Translations under genes and position numbers: made by a program
Source: Gemmatimonadales bacterium
GTDB taxonomy: Bacteria > Gemmatimonadota > Gemmatimonadetes > Gemmatimonadales > GWC2-71-9
DNA: 64,000 nucleotides
Direction: 5' to 3'
NCBI GenBank assembly: GCA_035519195.1
Contig: DATIWU010000062.1
Coordinates: forward strand, 757 to 64,756
The notes under the pieces: generated by a model
The model's input: the letters and a program-made list of their open reading frames with translations, nothing else
Told to the model about the DNA's origin: nothing
Databases searched by the model: none
Shown here: in pieces, positions 3,207-54,775 of the stretch
How positions within the stretch are numbered: the stretch's first letter is position 1
How the letters are laid out: each line of letters opens with the position of its first letter

Positions 3207-4649
3207 ATGTCATCGAGCGTGCCCACGCTGCACCACAGCCGCACTGCCACACCGCTGCCGCAGCAGGATGAGCTGGCGCTCGCGATCGACCGCGCCGCCG
3301 GCGCGCGTCGCGTCGGCGGCAACCGGTTGGAGCATTTCGCCGACAGCCCCCGAGCGCTCGACGCCATGCTCGCCCTCATCACGCGCGCCGAGCGCTGGGT
3401 GCACCTCGAGAACTACATCATCCGCGGCGACCGCACCGGGCAGCGCTTCGCCGAGGCGCTCATGGAACGCGCGCAGGCCGGCGTGCGCGTCCGCGTGCTG
3501 TACGATGGCCTCGGCTCGGTCGGCACGTCGCGCGCGTTCTGGAACCGGCTCAGAAAAGCGGGCGTCGATGTACGGGCGTTCCATCCGATCTTGTCGTGGC
3601 GCGTCTCGGAGATCGTGTCTCGCGACCACCGCAAGCTCCTGGTCGTCGATGGCGCTCAGGCGACGCTCGGCGGGCTGTGCATCGGTGATGAATGGGCGGG
3701 TGATCCCGAGCGGCACCGCCGCGCCTGGCGCGATACCGTCGTCGGGATCGCCGGCCCTGCTGTGCCCGTGCTCGATGCGGCATTCGCGTCGACCTGGCGC
3801 CGCGCGGGCCCCGACCTGCCGAACGACGAGCAAAGCGCAGACCCCGAGCCATGCGGGGGCTCGAGCGTACGCATCATCCAGGGGATCCCGCGACGCGCGC
3901 GGGTGTACCGGGCGGTGGAGCTGTTGGCGGCAAGCGCCGCGGAACGGCTCTGGATCACCGACGCTTACCTGGTCGCACCCGCCCCACTCTACGCCAGCCT
4001 GATCGACGCCGCGCGGAGCGGCGTGGATGTGCGGCTGCTCGTGCCGGGTACGAGCGACCTTCCCGTGCTGCGCTATCTCACCCGCGTGGGCTATCGCGAG
4101 CTGCTGCACCGCGGGGTGCGCATCTTCGAGTTCCAGGGGCCGATGATTCACGCGAAGACGATGCTGGTGGATCACCGCTGGGCGCGGGTGGGCTCCACGA
4201 ACCTCAACGTCTCGAGCCTGCTCACGAATTTCGAGCTCGATCTCCTGGCCGAGGGCGAAGAGCTGTGCGACGCCCTGGCGTCGCAATTCCGGCGCGACCT
4301 TTCGGCCAGCCGGGAAATCGTATTACAAAGGCGGCGGCGCTTGCCGGCGCGGCTCGTGGGAGCACCGGCTGAGTCTCCTCCGGACACACCGGAACAGCCG
4401 TCCAGCCACAAGCGAACCCGCTATGAGCTTGGGGCTGTTGCGCTTGTGGTCGTGCGCCGCGTGGCCGGCGGGATCCGGCGCGGCATTGCGGCCACGGGGG
4501 CGCTGGTGTTCGCCGGGCTGGGAACGTTGCTGCTCATTTTTCCCCGGATCATGGGTATTATCTTCGCTATCTTGGCGTACGTCGTGGCCTTGGCACTCGG
4601 GTTATATGCCGTCGAGCGCAGGCGCTCCCGGGAGGACGATGGACTCTGA
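3207..4649 (+). CDS. phospholipase D / cardiolipin synthase-like protein with C-terminal TM segments
   Basis: Two HKD motifs (SRDHRKLLVVDG and IHAKTMLVDHRWARVGSTNLN). A hydrophobic C-terminal region follows (ALVFAGLGTLLLIFPRIMGIIFAILAYVVALALGLY). Confidence 0.8.
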   Translation: MSSSVPTLHHSRTATPLPQQDELALAIDRAAGARRVGGNRLEHFADSPRALDAMLALITRAERWVHLENYIIRGDRTGQRFAEALMERAQAGVRVRVLYDGLGSVGTSRAFWNRLRKAGVDVRAFHPILSWRVSEIVSRDHRKLLVVDGAQATLGGLCIGDEWAGDPERHRRAWRDTVVGIAGPAVPVLDAAFASTWRRAGPDLPNDEQSADPEPCGGSSVRIIQGIPRRARVYRAVELLAASAAERLWITDAYLVAPAPLYASLIDAARSGVDVRLLVPGTSDLPVLRYLTRVGYRELLHRGVRIFEFQGPMIHAKTMLVDHRWARVGSTNLNVSSLLTNFELDLLAEGEELCDALASQFRRDLSASREIVLQRRRRLPARLVGAPAESPPDTPEQPSSHKRTRYELGAVALVVVRRVAGGIRRGIAATGALVFAGLGTLLLIFPRIMGIIFAILAYVVALALGLYAVERRRSREDDGL

Positions 4650-19508: not shown

Positions 19509-19537
19509 TTGACACAAATTCGCCTCCTGACTAGGCT
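19509..19537 (+). promoter_or_regulatory. candidate promoter TTGACA-17-TAGGCT placing the TSS on ATG 19544 (leaderless)
   Basis: Consensus -35 at 19509-19514 and TAnnnT at 19532-19537. The ATG begins 7 nt after the -10. No SD. Confidence 0.35.
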
Positions 19538-19543
19538 CTCGCC

Positions 19544-20158
19544 ATGACGTTTTCCCGCCGCGCCACGCGGCCGCCCGTCGACGCTCCGGCGCTTCATGAC
19601 CGGGCCATGGACAACCTCCGCTTCATCCGCGAGACGATGGAGCGGGCGGGCGCGTTCACGGCGGTGCCGGGATGGGGGCAGGTGTGGGTTGGCTGCACGG
19701 CCGTGATTGCGGCGCTCATGGCTGCGCGGCAAAGCAATGTCGAGCTGTGGCTCGTGATCTGGCTCGCCGAAGCCGTTGTCGCCCTGGTGATCGGCGGATG
19801 GGCGCTGGCGCGCAAAGCGCACGCGGCGAACGATCCCATTCTCTCGGGACCGGCGCGGCGCTTTGGGCTGAGCTTCCTCCCCCCGATGGCCGCCGCCGGG
19901 CTGCTCACGATCGCCCTGTACCGTGCCGGTGTCTGGCAGGCGCTGCCCGCCACCTGGCTCATGATGTATGGCGCGGGTGTCGCGACGGCGGGCGCCTTTT
20001 CGGTGCGCGTGGTGCCCGTGATGGGCCTGTGTTTCATGCTGCTAGGCGCGGTCGCCTTGTTCGGCCCGGCTGCCTGGGGCAACTGGTGCATGGCCGCCGG
20101 GTTCGGCGGACTCCACTTGGTGTTCGGCGCCATCATCGCTCGGAAATACGGTGGCTAA
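19544..20158 (+). CDS. hypothetical integral membrane protein
   Basis: Five to six hydrophobic helices. Overlaps the downstream regulator gene by 8 nt. Confidence 0.5.
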   Translation: MTFSRRATRPPVDAPALHDRAMDNLRFIRETMERAGAFTAVPGWGQVWVGCTAVIAALMAARQSNVELWLVIWLAEAVVALVIGGWALARKAHAANDPILSGPARRFGLSFLPPMAAAGLLTIALYRAGVWQALPATWLMMYGAGVATAGAFSVRVVPVMGLCFMLLGAVALFGPAAWGNWCMAAGFGGLHLVFGAIIARKYGG

Positions 20159-23006: not shown

Positions 23007-24977
23007 ATGCTCTCTCTCGCGCTCGCGGCCACGCTGCTGCAGCAGCAACAGCGACCCGCTCAGCAGACGCAGCTTCCGCCACTCCCGGTGCAGGTCGGTG
23101 ACACGTCGCCGTTCCGGCGGTTGCCGCTTCCGACCGCAACCATGATCCGGACCGGCTCAGGGTCGCCGGGGCCGGTGTACTGGCAGCAGCGAGCCGATTA
23201 CGTGATTCGCGCGACGCTCGATACCGGGACGCAGACGCTCTCGGGCCGCGAAACCATCCGGTACACCAACAACTCTCCGGACACCCTGCGGTACGTCTGG
23301 GTGCAGCTCGACCAGAACATTTATCGGCAGGACAGCCGCGCGGGGTTTCTCGCCCCGCCGGGCGCGAGATTCGCGGGCGGCGGGTTCGTTGGCGGGTACA
23401 CGATCGAAGACTTTTCCTCGGTGCAGCCAGCCGACAAGAAGACGAGCCGGCAGGCGGACAAGAAGACGCCGCTGAAAATGACGGTGGACGGCACGCTCAT
23501 GCGGGTCGATTTGGACCGTCCCCTCCCTCCCAAGGGCACGGTCGAGTTCAACGTCGTCTATCAGTTCCAGATACCCGAACATGGCTCCGACCGGATGGGA
23601 CGAGAGCTGTACACGGAGGGTTGGGAGTACGAGCTGGCGCAGTGGTACCCGCGCATGGCCGTGTACGACGACGTGCGGGGCTGGAACACCGAGCAATATC
23701 TCGGCCAGGGAGAGTTCTATCTCGAGTACGGGGATTTCGACGTGGAGCTCACGGTTCCGCGCAACTTCATCGTCGTCGCCACCGGCACGTTGCTCAATCC
23801 CGCCGACGTGCTGACGCAGACCCAGCGCGACCGGCTGGCGCAGGCGCTCAAATCGGATCGCACGGTGGCGATCGTCGGGCGGAACGAGGTGGGGAACCCG
23901 TCGACACGGCCCGCCGGAAAGACGCCGACGCTGACATGGCATTTCGAAGCGAAGAACGTGCGCGACGTGGCCTGGGCCGCGGCGCCGAATTTCATCTGGG
24001 ACGCGGCGGGATGGGACGGCATTCTCGTGCAGTCCGCCTACCCGCTCGAAGCCAACTCCGATTGGCAGAATTCCACGCTCTACGCGCGGCATTCGATTCA
24101 GCATTATTCAGACAAGTGGTTCCACTATCCCTACCCGGTCGCGACGAACGTGGGCGGACCGGTGGGGGGCATGGAATATCCCATGATCGTGTTCTGCGAG
24201 GATCGCTCCGGCGGGCGCGGGCTATTCCAGGTCGAGACGCACGAGCTGGGACATCAGTGGTTCCCCATGACCGTCGGATCGAACGAGCGGCTGTATGCGT
24301 GGATGGACGAAGGCTTCAACACGTTCATCAACATCTATTCGGAGATGACGTTTTATCACGACTCGATACCGCAGGGGCGCGGCGCCGCGACGCAATGGGC
24401 GCGCTTCGCAGCGCTCGGGCTCGACCAGCCCCCGATGCTTCCGGCAGACCGTGTTGCCCCTCGCCTGCTCGGTCAAGTGGAGTACAACAAGCCGGCAACC
24501 GGGTTGTATCTCCTGCGCCAGTACATCATCGGCGACACCACGCGATTCGACGCCGCCTTCCGGGAATACATCCGCCGCTGGGCCTTCAAACACCCCACCC
24601 CGGCGGATTTCTTCCGCAGTATGGAGGACGGATTGGGTGAAGACTTGTCGTGGTTCTGGCGGGGCTGGTTCTATCGCACGGACGTGGTCGACCAGGCAGT
24701 CGACTCGCTCAGCACGGTCAGGGATTCGAACGGGGTCACCTATACGGGGATTTTTCTCTCCAGTCTCGGCGCGCTTCCCATGCCCGTCGACCTGCGGATT
24801 ACGTTCGCGGATCGCTCAACCACTCGGGTGCGTCTGCCGGTCGAGGTGTGGATGCAGGGGAGCCGGTACGTGTACGTGCAGCAGTATTCGGATGACGTGA
24901 CGAAAGTCGAAGTCGACCCGGACGGCCGCATCCCGGACGTGCGGCGGGAAAACAATGTCTGGCCGAAGGGACGGTAG
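23007..24977 (+). CDS. M1-family zinc metallopeptidase (aminopeptidase N-like), secreted
   Basis: GGMEYPMIVF exopeptidase-like motif and HELGHQWF...WMDEGFNTF (HExxH-x18-E). N-terminal signal. Confidence 0.85.
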   Translation: MLSLALAATLLQQQQRPAQQTQLPPLPVQVGDTSPFRRLPLPTATMIRTGSGSPGPVYWQQRADYVIRATLDTGTQTLSGRETIRYTNNSPDTLRYVWVQLDQNIYRQDSRAGFLAPPGARFAGGGFVGGYTIEDFSSVQPADKKTSRQADKKTPLKMTVDGTLMRVDLDRPLPPKGTVEFNVVYQFQIPEHGSDRMGRELYTEGWEYELAQWYPRMAVYDDVRGWNTEQYLGQGEFYLEYGDFDVELTVPRNFIVVATGTLLNPADVLTQTQRDRLAQALKSDRTVAIVGRNEVGNPSTRPAGKTPTLTWHFEAKNVRDVAWAAAPNFIWDAAGWDGILVQSAYPLEANSDWQNSTLYARHSIQHYSDKWFHYPYPVATNVGGPVGGMEYPMIVFCEDRSGGRGLFQVETHELGHQWFPMTVGSNERLYAWMDEGFNTFINIYSEMTFYHDSIPQGRGAATQWARFAALGLDQPPMLPADRVAPRLLGQVEYNKPATGLYLLRQYIIGDTTRFDAAFREYIRRWAFKHPTPADFFRSMEDGLGEDLSWFWRGWFYRTDVVDQAVDSLSTVRDSNGVTYTGIFLSSLGALPMPVDLRITFADRSTTRVRLPVEVWMQGSRYVYVQQYSDDVTKVEVDPDGRIPDVRRENNVWPKGR

Positions 24978-50593: not shown

Positions 50594-51669
50594 GCCATCG
50601 CTTTCTCGACGAGCCCCAGCAGCTCCTGAAGCGCCGGAACCGTGTGGTCCCCCATGTGGCCGATGCGAATCGTCGAGTCCTTCAGCTCGCCATAGCCGGA
50701 CCCGATCACCCAGCCCTGCTTCTTGAGAGCGCTGACAATGCCCGCCGCGCGACCCTCGGGAACTCGGAGACAGGAGACCGTCCAGCTCCGCCGGCCTTCG
50801 GGCGGCAGGTACTCGATGCCACGTTGGGCGCTCCACTGTTCCACGGCGCGGCGCATGGCATCGTGGCGCCGCCAGCGCGCTTCCACTCCGCCTTCCTGCT
50901 CGATTCTCGCGAGCTGGACTTCGAGCGCATAGAAGAGCGACAGCGCCGGCGTATTGGTGGGCTGCGCCTTCCGCGTCGCCTCTTCGAACGTGACGAGGTC
51001 GAAGTATTGCCCGCGTCCCGAGAGCGTCCGGGCGCGCTGCCGCATCCGTTCGGAGGCGACCCCCAGGGCGAGCCCGGGAGGCAGCGCCAGCGCCTTTTGC
51101 GATCCTGTGAAAGTGAAGTCGAGCCCCCAGTGCTCCGGCTCAACGGGTGAGCCGGCGAGCGACGTGACCGCGTCCACCAGCACGAGCACGTCGTCGAATT
51201 CGTGGACCACCTGCGCGAGCGCCGCGACGTCCTGCAGGACTCCCGTCGAGGTCTCGGAGTGCACGAGCGTCACCGCGTCCACGGGAGTGCGGCGCAGCGC
51301 ATCCCGGAGCATGTCGGGCTCGACCGCGCAGCCGAGCGGAACGTCGAGCCGGATGGTTTCCTTGCCGCACGCGCCGACCAACCGGGCGAACCGGTCGCTG
51401 AACGAGCCGTTCACGAGCGACAGCGCGCGGCGGCGCACGCCGTTGCGCACGGCCATTTCCATGAACCCCGTGGCGGATGCCGTTCCTACGAGCACCGGCT
51501 CCCTGGAACGGAACATCTGACCCAAACGCGGCGCGATTCCCGCGAGCAGCGCTTCCATGGCGCTCGAGCGATGTCCGATCATCGGCCGCTGCATGGCCGC
51601 GAGCACGTCAGGATGGACATCCGTCGGCCCCGGCAGGAAAAACCGCCCGAAGGCTGGCGTGTCAGTCAT
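50590..51669 (-). CDS. class-V pyridoxal-phosphate aminotransferase (serine-glyoxylate/alanine-glyoxylate type; plausible phosphoserine aminotransferase role)
   Basis: FLPGPTDVHPDVL..., TGSQKALALPPG (PLP Lys). 359 aa. Coupled to serA. Confidence 0.8.
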   Translation of the reverse strand: MTDTPAFGRFFLPGPTDVHPDVLAAMQRPMIGHRSSAMEALLAGIAPRLGQMFRSREPVLVGTASATGFMEMAVRNGVRRRALSLVNGSFSDRFARLVGACGKETIRLDVPLGCAVEPDMLRDALRRTPVDAVTLVHSETSTGVLQDVAALAQVVHEFDDVLVLVDAVTSLAGSPVEPEHWGLDFTFTGSQKALALPPGLALGVASERMRQRARTLSGRGQYFDLVTFEEATRKAQPTNTPALSLFYALEVQLARIEQEGGVEARWRRHDAMRRAVEQWSAQRGIEYLPPEGRRSWTVSCLRVPEGRAAGIVSALKKQGWVIGSGYGELKDSTIRIGHMGDHTVPALQELLGLVEKAMA

Positions 51670-52330
51670 GTGGCGCCGTGGCGAGCTCTCGAATGAAGCG
51701 CGGTTCGACCACTTCCGCCGTCTGGACCAGCCGCACCCCTTCCTCCGCCCACTCCTTGAGAAGGTGCTGAGCCGCGGTGCGGTCGATGGGTTTCATGGCA
51801 TCCGTCACCGCGAACAGCCGCGTTTGCGGACGGCGGGCGAGCAGACCTTCGATGGCAAACCGATCGCACACGTCGAGCGCGACACCATACAGGACGATGT
51901 CCTCCGGATCGAGTACCTGCAGCACGATGTCGACGTTCGCGTTCGTGAATACGTCGAAGCGGTGCTTCAGGAACAGAATGTCGCCACGGTGAGCGCGGAC
52001 TCGCTCCGCGAGAAGAGACGGATCGGCCCGCACCGGCTCGATGACGAGCGGGTCCACGAGGCGCGTCTCGGGAATTTTCTCTTGCCCCGGCGTGTCTCGC
52101 ATGCAGTGCGGCGGAAAGGTGGTTCTCCAATCGGGGGCGTCGGACAGCTCGGCATGACCCGCGATGTGATCGTCCGCACTGGCCACGATCCGGATGCCGT
52201 ACTGATGCGCGAAATTCGTGAGTTGCGCGAGTCGCGGGATGATGGCCTCGGACTCGGGGACGTACAGTTTTCCCTCGGACTTCAGGAAATCGTACTGGGT
52301 ATCGACATCCCAGAAGATCAGTCGTGGCAT
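51662..52330 (-). CDS. isochorismatase-family cysteine hydrolase (nicotinamidase-like)
   Basis: LIFWDVDTQYDF, HC (PPHCMRDTPG), and a GVALDVC-type catalytic Cys context. SD GGAG 8 nt upstream. Confidence 0.75.
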   Translation of the reverse strand: MPRLIFWDVDTQYDFLKSEGKLYVPESEAIIPRLAQLTNFAHQYGIRIVASADDHIAGHAELSDAPDWRTTFPPHCMRDTPGQEKIPETRLVDPLVIEPVRADPSLLAERVRAHRGDILFLKHRFDVFTNANVDIVLQVLDPEDIVLYGVALDVCDRFAIEGLLARRPQTRLFAVTDAMKPIDRTAAQHLLKEWAEEGVRLVQTAEVVEPRFIRELATAPHD

Positions 52331-52370
52331 CGCGCGGAATCTCCAAAGCGCGGATCGGTCGTGTCAACGG

Positions 52371-52399
52371 TTGACAGCATGAATGTGTAAGCCTACTTT
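52371..52399 (+). promoter_or_regulatory. candidate sigma70-like promoter TTGACA-17-TACTTT
   Basis: Consensus -35 at 52371-52376, a 17-nt spacer, and TAnnnT at 52394-52399. The predicted TSS coincides with ATG 52407. Confidence 0.5.
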
Positions 52400-52406
52400 C
52401 TGGCCC

Positions 52407-52499
52407 ATGCAGCCTCGGGCTCGTCTCGTGTGTTGTTGCTGTTGTCGCCGCCAACTCGAGGGTTGGACGGATGCCTTCAGCTCGCCCGTGACGACATGA
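52407..52499 (+). CDS. 30-codon leader peptide MQPRARLVCCCCCRRQLEGWTDAFSSPVTT with five consecutive Cys codons (putative attenuator leader, leaderless mRNA)
   Basis: Codons tgt tgt tgc tgt tgt at 52431-52445. No SD. The ATG sits at the predicted TSS. Below the ORF-track size cutoff. Confidence 0.5.
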   Translation: MQPRARLVCCCCCRRQLEGWTDAFSSPVTT

Positions 52500-52531
52500 G
52501 GACCTAGCACCTCTTCGACCACAGCAGAGAC

Positions 52532-52568
52532 AAAGGCCCGGCCACCCTCAAGTGGCCGGGCCTTTTTT
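52532..52568 (+). terminator. Rho-independent terminator (attenuator terminator)
   Basis: An 11-bp GC-rich stem ggcccggccac/gtggccgggcc (52535-45 with 52552-62), a 6-nt loop, and a T6 tract at 52563-68 preceded by AAA. Confidence 0.8.
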
Positions 52569-52653
52569 GCGCCGGCCAGCGAACCGCGGAGCGCTGATGC
52601 AATTGAGCGACGTGAATTGGTATCTCGGCGATCAACCTGGACAGGAACGCCTG

Positions 52654-53889
52654 ATGAGCATCTCGGGTCGGGGATGGGCGCGTTTGCTTGGCACGGCGAG
52701 CGTCTGGACGTGCGGACTGGCCGTTCCATCCAACCGAGCTCTCGGGCAGAGCGATTCGGTGCCCCCGGCGACGGCGGGTCCGGGCGGCTTCACGATTCAG
52801 TCGCGCGAGGGCAGCTTCCAATTCCGGCTGAGAGGATACATCCAGGCCGACGGCCGCTTCTTTCCCGACGTGCCCGCAAATTTCGGAGCCAGCACATTCC
52901 TGCTCCGCCGCGCACGGCCCGTCATGGACGTGACTACGTGGCGGTACTTCACGCTGCGTCTCACGCCGGACTTCGGTCAGGGGAAGGTCACCCTGTTTGA
53001 TGCCTATCTGGATTTCCGTCCCGTGTCCCACGCGGGCCTGCGCTTCGGCAAGATGAAACCCCCGGTTGGTCTCGAGCGTCTTCAGCCAGCGATCGACCTG
53101 CGGTTTGCGGAACGCGCCCTGCCGACCAATCTCGTGCCGACGAGAGACGTGGGCGCGCAGCTGTTTTACGAGAAGCCGATCGTGTCGGTCGCCGCGGGAG
53201 TGTTCAACGGCGTCCCGGATTTTGGGAATGGGGACATCGACGGCACGAACGACAAGGATTTCGAGGCTCGCGTCTTCTTCCACGTGCCACACGTCGGCGT
53301 CGGGATCGCGGGCACCACCGGACAGGAGCACGGAACGATCACTGCCCCCGCCCTGCCGAGCTATGTGACCCCGGGCCAGCAACCCATGTTTCGGTATCGG
53401 GACACTACGATCGCGAACGGGACGCGCAGCCGCATCACTCCGCAAGGCTACTTCTATTTCGGCCCGTTCGGCCTTCTGGGCGAATACGTGCGGTCCGCGC
53501 AGCGCGTGAGCCGCACTACCGCCACGGCTGACCTCGCCAACTCGAGCTGGCAAATCGCCGCGTCGGTGTTTGTCACGGGCGAACGGGCGTCATTTGCGAC
53601 CGTGTCCCCGCGCCACAAGTTCGATCCCGCGGCGCACCACTGGGGCGCCATCGAGCTGGCGGCCCGCTACAGTGAGCTCTCGATCGACCCGGCCGCGTTC
53701 CCGACATTCGCGAATGTCGCGAACTCCCCGACCAAGACGACCGCGTGGGCGGTGGGGGCCACCTGGCACCTCGCGCCCGCCGTGAAGATCGCACTGAACT
53801 ACGAACTGGCCCAATTCTCGGGAGGAGCCGCGGGCGGTGACCGCGCGCCCGAGCATTTCCTCGTCACTCGATTCCAACAGGCGTTCTGA
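52654..53889 (+). CDS. OprO/OprP-family anion-selective porin
   Basis: Signal MSISGRGWARLLGTASVWTCGLAV.... FQFRLRGYIQADGRFF and FGKMKPPVGLERL motifs of the Porin_O_P family. C-terminal ...TRFQQAF. Confidence 0.8.
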   Translation: MSISGRGWARLLGTASVWTCGLAVPSNRALGQSDSVPPATAGPGGFTIQSREGSFQFRLRGYIQADGRFFPDVPANFGASTFLLRRARPVMDVTTWRYFTLRLTPDFGQGKVTLFDAYLDFRPVSHAGLRFGKMKPPVGLERLQPAIDLRFAERALPTNLVPTRDVGAQLFYEKPIVSVAAGVFNGVPDFGNGDIDGTNDKDFEARVFFHVPHVGVGIAGTTGQEHGTITAPALPSYVTPGQQPMFRYRDTTIANGTRSRITPQGYFYFGPFGLLGEYVRSAQRVSRTTATADLANSSWQIAASVFVTGERASFATVSPRHKFDPAAHHWGAIELAARYSELSIDPAAFPTFANVANSPTKTTAWAVGATWHLAPAVKIALNYELAQFSGGAAGGDRAPEHFLVTRFQQAF

Positions 53890-53896
53890 GCCCGCG

Positions 53897-54775
53897 ATGA
53901 CTACGGCACTTCTCGTTCTCGTCCTCATCACCCTCCTCGCCGCCACGGTCAACGGGGCGCTGGGGTATGGGTTTTCCTCGATCACCGTTCCGGTGGCGCT
54001 GCTGTTTTATACGAACCGCGTGCTCAATCCCGCGCTCGTCTGGATCGAGGTCGTCCTGAATGCGTACGTGCTGTGGGTGAATCGCGCGAGCATCCCGAAT
54101 GTCTGGCGCCGGGTATTGCCCATGGTCGTCGGACTCGCCCCCGGGGTTGTGATCGGGACTTCGATTCTGCATCGCGTCCAGCCGAGCTGGCTCAAGCTCA
54201 TCACGTTCATCGTGCTGCTGCCCTTGATTCTGCTCCAGGCCGCGGGCTTTCGTCGTCCCATCCGGGCCGAGCGCCGCGCCGGCCTGGCCTTCGGCGGCGG
54301 ACTCGGCGTGCTCTATGCCGTGACGACGATCTCGGGACCACCACTCGCCGTCATGCTGTCGAACCAGGGACTCACGAAACGGGATTTCCGGGCCGGTCTG
54401 GGACTGGTACGGTTGGCGGAGTCCACATTCACCGCCATCGCGTACTACTTCGCGCACATGTTCACGAGAGAAAGCGCGGGGCTGCTGCCGTACATCCTGC
54501 CGAGTCTCGCGATCGGCATCCCGGCCGGGGTGCAGTTGATCAAGCGCGTGCGGCCGGAGACGTTCCGGCGTATCTGCATGAGCTTCGACGCGTGGGTGGT
54601 GGGATTCGGGATTTCGACGTTGTTGCAGCAGCTGCACATCATCGAGGGCGGAGCGGCGTTCTCGGTCCTCGCGGGCGTGGGCACGCTCGACCTGTGGCTC
54701 TTGTACCGTTTCTTCAGCAGGTTGCCCGAGATCCCCAGGGAATCGGAGCGCGAGCTCGCCCCGGTGACAAACTAG
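53897..54775 (+). CDS. TauE/SafE (TSUP) family anion permease
   Basis: Eight hydrophobic helices and the N-terminal motif VNGALGYGFSSITVP typical of the family. Starts 7 nt after the porin stop. Confidence 0.85.
   Translation: MTTALLVLVLITLLAATVNGALGYGFSSITVPVALLFYTNRVLNPALVWIEVVLNAYVLWVNRASIPNVWRRVLPMVVGLAPGVVIGTSILHRVQPSWLKLITFIVLLPLILLQAAGFRRPIRAERRAGLAFGGGLGVLYAVTTISGPPLAVMLSNQGLTKRDFRAGLGLVRLAESTFTAIAYYFAHMFTRESAGLLPYILPSLAIGIPAGVQLIKRVRPETFRRICMSFDAWVVGFGISTLLQQLHIIEGGAAFSVLAGVGTLDLWLLYRFFSRLPEIPRESERELAPVTN

What the first reader, a model, noticed from the sequence alone, without database searches (positions are those of the whole stretch)
52371..52568. Candidate cysteine-sensing leader-peptide attenuator: leaderless 30-codon ORF with five consecutive Cys codons and three mutually exclusive helices
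Seen in sequence:
- Promoter: TTGACA (52371-76), a 17-nt spacer, then TACTTT (52394-99). This puts the TSS on ATG 52407, and no SD precedes it.
- ORF 52407-52499 encodes MQPRARLVCCCCCRRQLEGWTDAFSSPVTT, with tgt tgt tgc tgt tgt at 52431-45.
- Helix P1 lies 3 nt after the last Cys codon: ccgccaac (52448-55) pairs with gttgg(a)cgg (52462-70), 8 bp with one bulge.
- Alternative helix: 52455-70 (ctcgagggttggacgg) pairs with 52538-52 (cccggccaccctcaag). That is 13 Watson-Crick pairs, 2 mismatches and 1 bulge, and it consumes most of the terminator 5' arm and its loop.
- Terminator: 11-bp GC stem (52535-45 with 52552-62) followed by T6.
Inference: a ribosome stalled on the Cys run would cover the 5' arm of P1. 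That frees 52458-70 to form the antiterminator, giving read-through under Cys-tRNA limitation. This is the geometry of the classical trp/his/leu attenuators. Runs of Cys codons as the sensing element are rare, and I know of none in front of transport genes.
Basis: partly seen in the sequence, partly recalled or inferred. Interest (0 to 1): 0.88.

Follow-up and report, generated by a model that had tools for sequence, protein, structure and literature searches.

The report
Cysteine-sensing leader peptide transcription attenuator
A tiny upstream gene with five cysteine codons in a row, followed by a switchable terminator hairpin, most likely lets this soil bacterium turn on a sulfate-uptake operon only when cysteine runs short. 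This is a classical attenuator used for an amino acid for which terminator-type attenuation has, as far as I could find, not been described.

Summary
The same about 165-nt element sits upstream of the orthologous porin gene in 12 distinct relatives, probably Gemmatimonadales. All 12 keep these features:
- TTGACA, a 17-18 nt spacer and TAnnTT
- a start codon 7-8 nt after the -10 box in most members (10-13 nt in two)
- a 28-33 codon ORF with 4-5 Cys codons ending 1-2 nt before hairpin P1
- a 12-bp pairing between the P1 3' arm and the terminator 5' arm
- a strong terminator

In all 12, folding with a ribosome placed on the last Cys codons replaces P1 with the antiterminator. A ribosome at the stop codon does not.

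The regulated operon is sulfur-related: a porin plus a TauE permease here, and a porin plus sulfate ABC transporter genes (Sbp, CysT and downstream ABC components), with or without an OscA-like gene, in orthologous loci. Three sequence-unrelated Cys-rich leaders, two with clear terminators, precede homologous porins elsewhere.

The antiterminator is invariant, so covariation cannot test it. Nothing here has been tested experimentally.

Precedents exist: translational poly-Cys leaderless sORFs in mycobacteria, and predictions in Actinobacteria and Deinococcus. I therefore rate it a new variant of a known kind.

The parts
52371..52376 (+). -35 box TTGACA
   Evidence: Read. It is TTGACA or TTGACT in all 12 relatives, while the spacer sequence varies and its length stays 17-18 nt. 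The pattern is rare in the window.
52394..52399 (+). -10 box TACTTT (family consensus TAnnTT)
   Evidence: Read. Relatives have TACCTT, TAGCTT or TAGGTT at the same distance from the -35 box. The generic scan did not call it.
52407..52499 (+). Leader ORF of 30 codons plus stop. The ATG lies 7 nt after the -10 box, so the transcript is probably leaderless.
   Evidence: The ORF is kept in frame at 28-33 codons in 12 relatives despite indels. The N-terminal residues are not conserved.
52431..52445 (+). Five consecutive Cys codons (TGT TGT TGC TGT TGT), the proposed sensor
   Evidence: Unique in the window, 0 expected. Relatives keep 4-5 Cys (CCCCC, CCxxCCC or CxxCCC), and the last codon always ends 1-2 nt before P1. 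The leader uses the minority codon TGT 4:1, whereas long ORFs in the window use TGC 50:13.
52448..52455 (+). Region 1: the 5' arm of P1 (CCGCCAAC). The extended P1 starts at 52444.
   Evidence: P1 hairpin -12.5 kcal/mol. A ribosome with its A site on Cys4 or Cys5 covers it.
52458..52477 (+). Region 2: the 3' arm of P1 (GUUGGACGG, 52462-70). Alternatively it forms the 5' strand of the antiterminator (GAGGGU, GG, CGG, GCCUU).
   Evidence: Its nucleotides are invariant across the family, including fourfold-degenerate third codon positions (ACG, GCC).
52481..52529 (+). Middle hairpin. Its tip is GAGG 52498-501 pairing with CCUC 52510-13, which overlaps the UGA stop codon. Its base is CUCGC pairing with GC.GAG.
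   Evidence: -11.4 kcal/mol. GAGG/CCUC is invariant, and it is kept in L088 where the stop codon has moved. The basal helix has 3 compensatory pairs.
52533..52549 (+). Region 3: the terminator 5' arm (52535-45) plus flanks. Alternatively it forms the 3' strand of the antiterminator.
   Evidence: Its nucleotides are almost invariant in the family, with only one substitution (L097) and one insertion (L088). Its terminator partner varies more (C.A mismatch, bulged C, GG.UU wobble).
52552..52568 (+). Region 4: the terminator 3' arm (52552-62) and the T6 tract (52563-68)
   Evidence: -29.1 kcal/mol. It is present in all relatives.
52654..53889 (+). First regulated gene, an OprO/P-family anion porin. 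Its start is probably ATG 52654, after a weak AGGA.
   Evidence: Pfam Porin_O_P, E = 4e-22. Orthologues are followed by sulfate ABC transporter genes (Sbp and CysT homologues, then further ABC components).
53837..54775 (+). Second regulated gene, a TauE/SafE-family permease. Its true start may lie a little downstream.
   Evidence: Pfam TauE, E = 1e-24. There is no gap to the porin gene, and the next gene is convergent.

Best explanation
This is a ribosome-mediated (leader-peptide) transcription attenuator that reads charged tRNA-Cys.

Proposed steps:
1. A sigma-70-type promoter starts the transcript at or next to the AUG of a 30-codon ORF. This is inferred; there are no TSS data.
2. When Cys-tRNA is plentiful, the ribosome runs through the five Cys codons to the UGA. 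Hairpin P1 (regions 1:2) forms or re-forms behind it, and region 3 is left free.
3. The terminator (regions 3:4, -29 kcal/mol, followed by U6) then stops RNA polymerase about 85 nt before the porin gene.
4. When Cys-tRNA is scarce, the ribosome stalls with one of the last Cys codons in its A site, and its footprint covers region 1.
5. Region 2 is then free when region 3 emerges. The 12-16 bp antiterminator (-24.6 kcal/mol), closed over the middle hairpin, forms before region 4 is made.
6. Transcription continues into the porin-TauE operon, which probably imports sulfate or a related sulfur anion.

Shown here: the sequence features, their conservation, the thermodynamic switch in silico, and the sulfur context.
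Inferred: the TSS, translation of the ORF, stalling, and read-through.
For: (1) Family conservation. Twelve distinct relatives carry the element at the same place, upstream of the orthologous porin.
- The hexamers and their spacing are kept while the spacer sequence diverges.
- The start codon (ATG or GTG) lies 7-8 nt after the -10 box in most members, and 10-13 nt after it in L004 and L097.

(2) The ORF behaves as an ORF.
- It is in frame in all reliable members, with length changes in whole codons (28-33 codons).
- The N-terminus is unconserved.
- Only the Cys codons are conserved without an RNA-structure explanation. They vary synonymously (TGT/TGC) and favour the minority codon.

(3) Geometry. 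The last Cys codon ends 1-2 nt before P1 in every member.

(4) Constrained folding of the nascent RNA.
- A ribosome on the last 2-3 Cys codons gives no P1 and an antiterminator of 12-19 pairs.
- A ribosome at the stop codon, or no ribosome, keeps P1 and gives no antiterminator.
- This holds in 12 of 12 members.

(5) The 2:3 complementarity has z about -3 against dinucleotide shuffles. Region 3 is more conserved than its terminator partner, which fits a dual constraint on it.

(6) Context.
- In almost all of about 95 loci the porin homologue is followed by homologues of the sulfate-binding protein Sbp and the permease CysT (tblastn). Pfam shows the remaining ABC components in the loci I inspected. 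Sbp scores above the NCBIfam cutoff.
- An OscA-like sulfur-starvation gene sits between leader and porin in L001, L009 and L097.
- In the window's own clade, TauE replaces the ABC transporter.

(7) Convergence. Three unrelated Cys-rich leaders precede homologous porins.
- Group B (MCCRSVCCGRS..., 9 loci) has a strong terminator. It uses the words CGCUCUC/GAGAGCG in both P1 and the terminator.
- Group C (L037) has TTGACA-17-TAACAA-7-ATG, ...CCMSPCC, and a terminator.
- Group D (L005, Myxococcota) has CCC codons and alternative CCCACC/GGGUGGG pairings, followed by a hairpin with only a weak T run.

(8) No Rfam family matches.

(9) Precedent. Ribosome stalling on poly-Cys leaderless sORFs regulates cysteine operons in mycobacteria (10.1101/834739).
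Against: - There are no transcript, TSS, termination or translation data.
- The 12 core antiterminator pairs never vary, apart from alignment artefacts at the L088 insertion. Covariation therefore neither supports nor tests it.
- The one informative change, in L097, weakens the outer helix rather than compensating.
- The -10 box is poor by the E. coli consensus, and the scan does not call the promoter.
- Stalls at the first one or two Cys codons do not reach P1 geometrically in several members.
- The stop codon lies 27 nt beyond region 2, so termination relies on P1 re-forming behind the ribosome rather than on the ribosome masking region 2 as in trp.
- Equilibrium folding of truncated RNAs is only a proxy for co-transcriptional folding.
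- All group A sequences come from one fairly narrow clade with conserved synteny (a serC-like gene upstream).
Confidence: 0.75

Rival explanations
1. It is an independent small RNA gene of about 160 nt, with its own promoter and terminator, that acts in trans. The ORF and the Cys codons would be incidental, or the attenuator RNA would have a second job in trans as rnTrpL does in Sinorhizobium.
For: - A discrete promoter-to-terminator unit with a significantly stable fold (z = -3.7).
- Nucleotide-level invariance of long stretches.
- Released attenuator RNAs are known to act in trans (PMC6614838).
Against: - The element is always immediately upstream of, and on the same strand as, the sulfur-uptake operon.
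- The scan found no promoter between the terminator and the porin gene.
- The in-frame start, the Cys cluster and the stop are kept across indels, with synonymous variation in the Cys codons.
- Unrelated leader families share only the Cys codons plus the alternative-pairing logic.
- A purely trans-acting sRNA does not explain a Cys run placed 1-2 nt before a hairpin whose 3' arm matches the terminator.
Confidence: 0.1
2. It is a ligand- or protein-binding leader, such as a riboswitch or a protein-dependent antiterminator, that senses a sulfur metabolite directly. The conserved GGGUUGGACGG and GGCCCGGCCACCC blocks would be the binding site, and no translation would be needed.
For: The two blocks are invariant well beyond what a simple helix requires. 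There is also a conserved internal hairpin.
Against: - No Rfam family matches, even at E = 10.
- There is no multi-helix junction or other conserved unpaired core typical of aptamers. The conserved blocks are fully explained as the shared strands of P1, the antiterminator and the terminator.
- This reading does not explain the conserved start codon at the predicted TSS.
- It does not explain the Cys codons or their reappearance in unrelated leaders.
Confidence: 0.05
3. It regulates mainly at the level of translation, as in mycobacteria. In read-through mRNA the Cys-tract region pairs with the porin ribosome-binding site, and a stalled ribosome frees that site. The terminator would be only a minor contributor.
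For: - In the window, the MFE fold of 52407-52675 pairs 52413-52450 with 52626-52673. That partner region includes the AGGA motif and ATG 52654.
- The duplex has z = -2.1 in the window and -3.4 in L002.
- Precedent: 10.1101/834739.
Against: - It is not conserved. Seven other members, including L001, L004, L088 and L090, have z between -1.2 and +0.9.
- In the window the energy is matched by random windows inside the gene (-36.5 against -36.3).
- A -29 kcal/mol terminator with U6 is conserved in every member.
Confidence: 0.07
4. It is a gene for a functional Cys-rich micropeptide, for example one that binds metal or is redox-active, with its own terminator.
For: The ORF is conserved at 28-33 codons, with 4-5 Cys and a conserved GWTDA motif.
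Against: - GWTDA is encoded by the invariant region 2 nucleotides. These include fourfold-degenerate sites, and L004 has a D-to-G amino-acid change. The constraint is therefore on the RNA.
- The rest of the peptide is unconserved.
- The stop codon position shifts in L088 and L009.
- The arrangement and spacing of the Cys residues vary.
Confidence: 0.03

Closest known systems
Classical leader-peptide transcription attenuators of enterobacterial amino-acid operons (trpL, hisL, leuL, thrL, ilvL, pheL)
   Same: - A short leader ORF with clustered codons for the sensed amino acid.
- Mutually exclusive 1:2, 2:3 and 3:4 pairings.
- An intrinsic terminator upstream of the first structural gene.
- Use of a minority codon in the sensor. 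From my own knowledge, leuL uses the rare CUA codon.
   Different: - It senses cysteine.
- The ORF appears to be leaderless, with no Shine-Dalgarno sequence.
- The regulatory codons lie just 5' of region 1 rather than inside it.
- The stop codon lies well beyond region 2, inside a third conserved hairpin.
- It controls uptake genes (an outer-membrane porin and a permease) rather than biosynthetic enzymes.
- It is in Gemmatimonadota.
- It has no Rfam relative; the best leader match is Thr_leader at 17 bits against a cutoff of 55, which is on the terminator only.
Mycobacterial polycysteine leaderless sORF attenuators, the 'Cys ribulon' (Ms5788A and others; Canestrari et al., bioRxiv 10.1101/834739, Mol Microbiol 2020)
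   Same: - A leaderless short ORF.
- A run of consecutive Cys codons as a sensor of charged tRNA-Cys.
- It is the first cistron of an operon for cysteine or sulfur metabolism.
- The peptide is otherwise poorly conserved.
   Different: - The characterised mycobacterial case acts on translation. The Cys tract pairs with the downstream Shine-Dalgarno sequence and there is no terminator.
- Here a conserved intrinsic terminator and antiterminator are the core.
- Pairing with the ribosome-binding site is seen only weakly, in the window and in L002.
- There is no sequence homology, and the phylum is different.
Predicted Cys leader peptides in Actinobacteria (Seliverstov et al. 2005, PMC1262725) and the leaderless 10-aa, two-Cys leader upstream of cysS in Deinococcus deserti (de Groot et al. 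2014, PMC4007540)
   Same: Short upstream ORFs with Cys codons in front of cysteine-related genes. The D. deserti one is leaderless and was proposed to act by transcription attenuation.
   Different: - The actinobacterial ones lack recognisable terminators.
- The D. deserti one has two Cys codons and precedes a tRNA synthetase gene.
- In neither case was an explicit conserved terminator/antiterminator pair described in the passages I read.
- Neither controls sulfate-uptake genes.

Membership tests
Leader-peptide (ribosome-mediated) transcription attenuator | A short ORF in the 5' leader with clustered codons for the regulating amino acid | tested here: met
   A 30-codon ORF with 5 consecutive Cys codons. 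All 12 relatives keep 4-5 Cys. The run is unique in the window with 0 expected.
Leader-peptide (ribosome-mediated) transcription attenuator | An intrinsic terminator between the leader ORF and the first structural gene | tested here: met
   An 11-14 bp GC-rich stem followed by T6, -29.1 kcal/mol. It is conserved in all relatives. The simple scan did not call it.
Leader-peptide (ribosome-mediated) transcription attenuator | An antiterminator that excludes the terminator and is itself excluded by an upstream hairpin (1:2, 2:3, 3:4) | tested here: met
   The pairings share strands. The 2:3 duplex is -24.6 kcal/mol with z about -3. The complementarity is kept in 12 of 12 members.
Leader-peptide (ribosome-mediated) transcription attenuator | Evolutionary (covariation) support for the alternative pairing | tested here: inconclusive
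   Of the 12 antiterminator pairs, 10 never vary and none covaries. Only the neutral middle helix shows compensatory changes. The change in L097 is not compensatory.
Leader-peptide (ribosome-mediated) transcription attenuator | A ribosome stalled at the regulatory codons selects the antiterminator, and a ribosome at the stop codon does not | tested here: met
   Tested in silico only. Footprint-masked MFE folds of the nascent RNA give this result in 12 of 12 members.
Leader-peptide (ribosome-mediated) transcription attenuator | The regulated genes belong to the metabolism of the sensed amino acid | tested here: met
   The operon is a porin plus TauE here. Orthologous loci carry a porin plus sulfate ABC transporter genes, with or without an OscA-like gene.
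Leader-peptide (ribosome-mediated) transcription attenuator | Read-through responds to the charging level of the cognate tRNA | not testable with these tools
   This needs reporter fusions, Term-seq or Northern blots under cysteine or sulfur limitation.
Mycobacterial-type polycysteine leaderless sORF attenuator | The transcript starts at the AUG or GUG of the sORF (leaderless) | tested here: inconclusive
   - The distance from the -10 box to the start codon is 7-8 nt in most members, and there is no Shine-Dalgarno sequence.
- The same architecture precedes a 204-aa ORF at 19509-19546 and the divergent isochorismatase gene.
- There are no TSS data, and L004 and L097 would have leaders of 3-6 nt.
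Mycobacterial-type polycysteine leaderless sORF attenuator | At least 2 consecutive Cys codons in an sORF upstream of cysteine or sulfur genes | tested here: met
Mycobacterial-type polycysteine leaderless sORF attenuator | Attenuation by a duplex between the Cys tract and the downstream ribosome-binding site (translational, no terminator) | tested here: not met
   A conserved intrinsic terminator is present. Leader-RBS pairing is notable only in the window (z = -2.1) and in L002 (z = -3.4), and is absent in 7 other members.
Any Rfam family (riboswitch, known leader, sRNA) | A covariance-model match at or near the gathering score | tested here: not met
   The best match is 28.6 bits against a cutoff of 70 (asX1), and it lies on the terminator hairpin only. 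Nothing reaches gathering score in the window or in 6 related loci.

The most novel reading that the evidence does not exclude
Terminator-type cysteine attenuation may be a real, previously undescribed and convergently evolved way of controlling outer-membrane sulfate uptake in several diderm phyla. Gemmatimonadota would have at least two leader families. Another family comes from an unidentified lower-GC soil bacterium, and one from Myxococcota. In the window's lineage it may work at two levels: the terminator, and pairing of the Cys tract with the porin ribosome-binding site. The released 160-nt RNA might also carry sulfur status in trans.
Probability: 0.3. Interest if true: 0.7.

Novelty: new variant of a known kind. 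Interest (0 to 1): 0.58.

Why it matters
Cysteine was long the conspicuous gap among amino acids known to be sensed by leader-peptide attenuation. The 2020 mycobacterial paper states that uORF-mediated attenuation for cysteine had not been described before it, and the case it characterises is translational.

This locus would add three things:
- a textbook terminator/antiterminator version of Cys attenuation
- an example in a poorly studied phylum that seems to use leaderless mRNAs widely
- control of sulfur import across the outer membrane rather than of biosynthesis

Unrelated Cys-rich leaders recur in front of homologous porin and sulfate ABC transporter operons. This suggests a general and easily evolved solution, a 'Cys ribulon' beyond Actinobacteria. 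It also gives a simple sequence signature for annotating sulfur-regulated operons in metagenomes: a Cys-codon cluster followed by a terminator, upstream of Porin_O_P and Sbp genes.

The context also argues that this clade of 'phosphate-selective porin O/P' homologues is really a sulfate or thiosulfate porin.

Tried and rejected
- **Rfam.** I searched at E up to 10 on the region, and at gathering score on the whole window and 6 related loci. Only terminator-hairpin noise came back.
- **Generic promoter/terminator scan.** It called neither site. I relied on phylogenetic footprinting and pattern statistics instead.
- **Covariation for the antiterminator.** This is impossible because the pairs are invariant. 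Four extra look-ups for more divergent members added L097, whose two changes are not compensatory.
- **Further copies of the family.** nhmmer with the family alignment found no second copy in the window, and no copy lacking the ORF.
- **The only other (TGY)4 run in the window** (23039-23050, minus strand). It is antisense to the start of a + strand ORF that begins at 23007, so it is not a leader.
- **Mycobacterial-style pairing of the Cys tract with the ribosome-binding site.** It is present in the window and in L002 but is not family-wide, and in the window it is no better than in-gene controls. I kept it only as a minor rival.
- **A pairing in the no-ribosome folds** between the ORF 5' end (52412-21) and the terminator 5' arm. 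The 5' ORF sequence is not conserved in relatives, so I treated it as chance.
- **L094** was left out of the ORF statistics. It is a long-read contig with a truncated porin, and its leader stop codon is lost through an indel.
- **The genome-contig scan** with the single porin returned only 4 loci. The metagenome scan with an alignment was far more productive.
- **No protein search with the 30-aa peptide.** Gene callers had not called the ORF on the window's own contig.
Full report
**1. The observation**

- TTGACA at 52371-76, a 17-nt spacer, then TACTTT at 52394-99.
- ATG at 52407, 7 nt after the -10 box, with no Shine-Dalgarno-like motif before it.
- An ORF at 52407-52499 encoding MQPRARLVCCCCCRRQLEGWTDAFSSPVTT*.
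- TGT TGT TGC TGT TGT at 52431-45.
- Hairpin P1, 52448-55 pairing with 52462-70.
- An 11-bp GC stem, 52535-45 with 52552-62, followed by T6.

The 162-nt unit folds at -71.5 kcal/mol, z = -3.7. The MFE contains P1 and the terminator.

These features are well beyond chance:
- The run of five TGY codons is unique in the 64-kb window, which is 67% G+C. It never appeared in 40 Markov-1 simulated windows.
- TTGACA-N17-TAnnTT-N7-ATG occurs once, against 0 in 100 shuffles.

The generic promoter/terminator scan called neither site. The -10 box matches TATAAT at only 3 of 6 positions. The scan probably missed the terminator because the stem can extend into its flanking A and T runs; that explanation is my inference.

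Rfam has nothing here beyond matches to the terminator hairpin.

**2. Surroundings**

Upstream, on the other strand, lie an isochorismatase-family gene (51662-52330), a class-V aminotransferase and a D-3-phosphoglycerate dehydrogenase.

Downstream, on the same strand, lie an OprO/P-family porin and a TauE/SafE-family permease. The porin probably starts at ATG 52654. The next gene is convergent. The operon is therefore leader, porin, TauE.

The nearest named porin relatives are from Gemmatimonadales.

**3. Relatives**

I fetched about 95 loci through the porin.

The porin clade is tied to sulfate uptake.
- In almost every locus the porin is followed by homologues of the sulfate-binding protein Sbp and the permease CysT (tblastn).
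- Pfam shows a second permease and a TOBE-domain ABC ATPase in the loci I inspected.
- Sbp scores 515 bits against an NCBIfam cutoff of 288.
- In the window, L001, L002 and L088, a TauE permease replaces the ABC transporter at the same position.
- In L001, L009 and L097, a DUF2292 gene lies between the leader and the porin. The L001 copy matches the NCBIfam model for the sulfur-starvation protein OscA at E = 9e-14, which is below the curated cutoff.

Twelve distinct loci carry the same leader family: the window, L001, L002, L004, L095, L096, L099, L008, L009, L088, L090 and L097. nhmmer E-values are 1e-35 to 1e-46.

All twelve keep the following:
- The -35 box (TTGACA or TTGACT) and the -10 box (TAnnTT), with a spacer of constant length (17-18 nt) but divergent sequence.
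- A start codon, ATG or GTG, 7-8 nt after the -10 box. In L004 it is 10 nt and in L097 13 nt.
- A 28-33 codon ORF.
- Four or five Cys codons, arranged CCCCC, CCxxCCC or CxxCCC, with the last one ending 1-2 nt before P1.
- P1 itself.
- A GAGG/CCUC hairpin.
- The block GGCCCGGCCACCC.
- The terminator.

The N-terminal residues are unrelated between sub-lineages (MQPRARLV, MIIALR, MTLA, VTPIS, MKPTSRAM, MTTTPR). Length differences are whole codons.

The conserved 'GWTDA' peptide motif is encoded by nucleotides that are invariant even at fourfold-degenerate sites (ACG, GCC), while L004 has a D-to-G amino-acid change. In L088 the stop codon has moved, but GAGGA is kept. The constraint on those stretches is therefore on the RNA. 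The only conserved feature that needs a reading frame is the start-Cys-stop arrangement.

The Cys codons also vary synonymously. They are mostly TGT, whereas long ORFs in the window use TGC 50 times and TGT 13 times.

**4. Mechanism in silico**

RNAalifold on the family gives P1, the GAGG/CCUC hairpin and the terminator.

On the stretch from region 2 to the terminator loop, it gives a 12-bp helix that encloses the middle hairpin. This helix is GGG.UGG.CGG..GCC pairing with GGC.CCG.CCA.CCC.

Energies in the window, in kcal/mol:

| Structure | Energy |
|---|---|
| P1 | -12.5 |
| 2:3 duplex | -24.6 (z about -3 against dinucleotide shuffles) |
| Middle hairpin | -11.4 |
| Terminator | -29.1 |

I folded each nascent RNA cut just before the terminator 3' arm. 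A 31-nt footprint, from 18 nt before the A site to 12 nt after it, was made unpairable.
- With the A site on the last two or three Cys codons, P1 disappears and the 2:3 antiterminator (12-19 pairs) is the MFE.
- With the ribosome on the stop codon, or with no ribosome, P1 is kept and 2:3 is absent.
- This holds in all 12 members.

At full length the terminator always wins. That is expected for an attenuator, and it means the decision must be kinetic.

Region 3 is almost invariant: one substitution in L097 and one insertion in L088. Its terminator partner tolerates a C.A mismatch, a bulged C and G.U wobble at the base. This fits a double constraint on region 3.

**5. Limits**

The antiterminator pairs never vary, so covariation says nothing for or against it. 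Only the structurally neutral base of the middle hairpin shows compensatory changes.

In L097, the most divergent member, one change in region 2 (GCC to GCU) and one in region 3 (GGC to GAC) weaken the outer three pairs rather than compensating.

The TSS, translation of the ORF, stalling and read-through are all inferred.

Leaderless initiation is plausible for three reasons:
- The same promoter-to-ATG spacing precedes a 204-aa ORF at 19509-19546.
- It also precedes the divergent isochorismatase gene, as TTGACA-18-GAGATT-7-ATG.
- One survey lists Gemmatimonadetes with a value of 22 in a table I read as the percentage of genes using a Shine-Dalgarno sequence (PMC10783764).

**6. Independent support from unrelated leaders**

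Upstream of more distant porin-Sbp loci I found three further small-ORF families that share no sequence with the window's leader.

- **Group B** (9 loci) encodes M..MCCRSVCCGRSLESAHGGRAVL..PCPCC, followed by a 14-bp terminator. The words CGCUCUC and GAGAGCG are used both in a hairpin just after the CC..CC codons and in the terminator, so 1:2, 2:3 and 3:4 are again possible. A ribosome masked on the first four Cys codons switches the fold to 2:3.
- **Group C** (L037) has TTGACA-17-TAACAA-7-ATG, an ORF ending in ...VCCMSPCCPT, and a terminator.
- **Group D** (L005, Vitiosangium, Myxococcota) encodes MPTSLSLMVCCCRF.... It has alternative CCCACC / GGGUGGG / CCCACC / GGUGGG pairings and a final hairpin with only a weak T run.

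In the 800 nt upstream of the porin in these loci, almost every strong terminator follows a Cys-cluster ORF. Most other loci have neither feature and are presumably regulated in another way.

**7. Comparison with what is known**

In its logic this is a classical trp/his/leu-type attenuator, and it meets every defining feature that can be tested in silico. It is not a member of any Rfam leader family.

The closest functional relatives are the mycobacterial polycysteine leaderless sORFs. There, a ribosome stalled in the Cys tract frees the Shine-Dalgarno sequence of the next gene. That is a translational mechanism without a terminator. The authors noted that uORF attenuation for cysteine had not been described before (10.1101/834739).

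Cys leader peptides without terminators were predicted in Mycobacterium, Propionibacterium acnes and Bifidobacterium longum (PMC1262725). A leaderless 10-aa leader with two Cys codons was predicted upstream of cysS in Deinococcus deserti (PMC4007540).

My literature searches found no Cys attenuator with a defined terminator/antiterminator pair, none in Gemmatimonadota, and none in front of sulfate-uptake genes. Absence from the searchable library is not proof of absence.

A mycobacterial-style pairing between the Cys tract and the porin ribosome-binding site does appear in the window and in L002. It is not family-wide, and in the window it is no better than in-gene controls.

**8. Verdict**

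- Best explanation: a Cys-tRNA-sensing, probably leaderless, leader-peptide transcription attenuator of a sulfur-anion uptake operon (confidence about 0.75).
- Novelty: a new variant of a known kind.
- What is new: the terminator-based mechanism for cysteine, the phylum, the uptake-gene target, and the convergent recurrence.

Noticed in passing
L009:2224-2248, L088:2958-2982, L090:2959-2983, L001:~3957-3981; looser copies at L014:~576-600, L015:~657-681, L016:~856-880, L027:~2125-2149, L058:~597-621: A conserved small hairpin element, CUGACCGGAC(N)NCCGGA(A/G)GU(G/U)CUCA, lies 10-25 nt upstream of the porin ribosome-binding site in many relatives. These include loci that have no Cys leader. It is absent from the window. 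It could be a second regulatory RNA hairpin or a DNA operator. Rfam has no match.
   Followed up: partly
L036, L039, L043, L044, L054, L064, L065, L068, L078 (e.g. L039:2000-2185); L037:1848-2085; L005:2565-2700: Three further, sequence-unrelated Cys-rich small ORFs lie upstream of homologous porin-Sbp operons. Two are followed by clear terminators, and the third (L005) by a hairpin with only a weak T run. They look like convergent Cys attenuators.
   Followed up: partly
window 52362-52376 and 52330-52367 (- strand): TGTCAAC-G-GTTGACA forms two back-to-back -35 boxes. On the minus strand, TTGACA-18-GAGATT-7-ATG precedes the isochorismatase gene, so that gene looks leaderless too. The inverted TGTCAAC...GTTGACA pair recurs in relatives with variable spacing (1-16 nt), which argues against a dimeric operator.
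   Followed up: partly
window 19509-19546: TTGACA-17-TAGGCT-6-ATG lies directly in front of a 204-aa ORF (19544-20158). This is a third instance of the promoter-then-ATG architecture in the window, and it suggests that leaderless mRNAs are common in this organism.
   Followed up: partly
window 52413-52450 with 52626-52673: In the read-through RNA, the leader ORF, including the Cys tract, can pair with the porin ribosome-binding site and start codon. This includes GUUGUCGCCG pairing with CGGCGA(U)CAAC. The duplex has z = -2.1 here and -3.4 in L002, but it is absent in 7 other family members.
   Followed up: yes
window 52431-52445 against long ORFs in the window: The leader uses the minority Cys codon TGT (4 of 5 here, and mostly TGT across the family), whereas long ORFs in the window use TGC 50 times and TGT 13 times. 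This may be a rare-codon sensitisation, as I recall for the leu leader.
   Followed up: partly
L001:3741-3932, L009:~2031-2210, L097:1252-1440; remnant at L090:~2845-2900: A DUF2292 (OscA-like sulfur-starvation) gene is inserted between the leader terminator and the porin in some relatives. It has decayed to a fragment in L090 and is absent from the window.
   Followed up: partly
window 53837-54775 against L004, L008, L090 and others: Within one syntenic neighbourhood (serA, serC-like gene, leader, porin, then argD/argB on the other side), the sulfate ABC transporter genes after the porin are replaced by a single TauE-family permease in the window's sub-clade. This suggests that the TauE protein is the inner-membrane sulfate or sulfur-anion importer there.
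   Followed up: partly
L094:2396-3960: In this long-read contig the leader ORF has lost its stop codon through an indel, and the porin is truncated to 319 aa. These are probably assembly frameshifts, so I left it out of the ORF statistics.
   Followed up: no
window 23039-23050 (- strand): This is the only other run of four TGY triplets in the window. It is antisense to the start of a + strand ORF that begins at 23007 (a Gln-rich N-terminus), so it is not a leader.
   Followed up: yes
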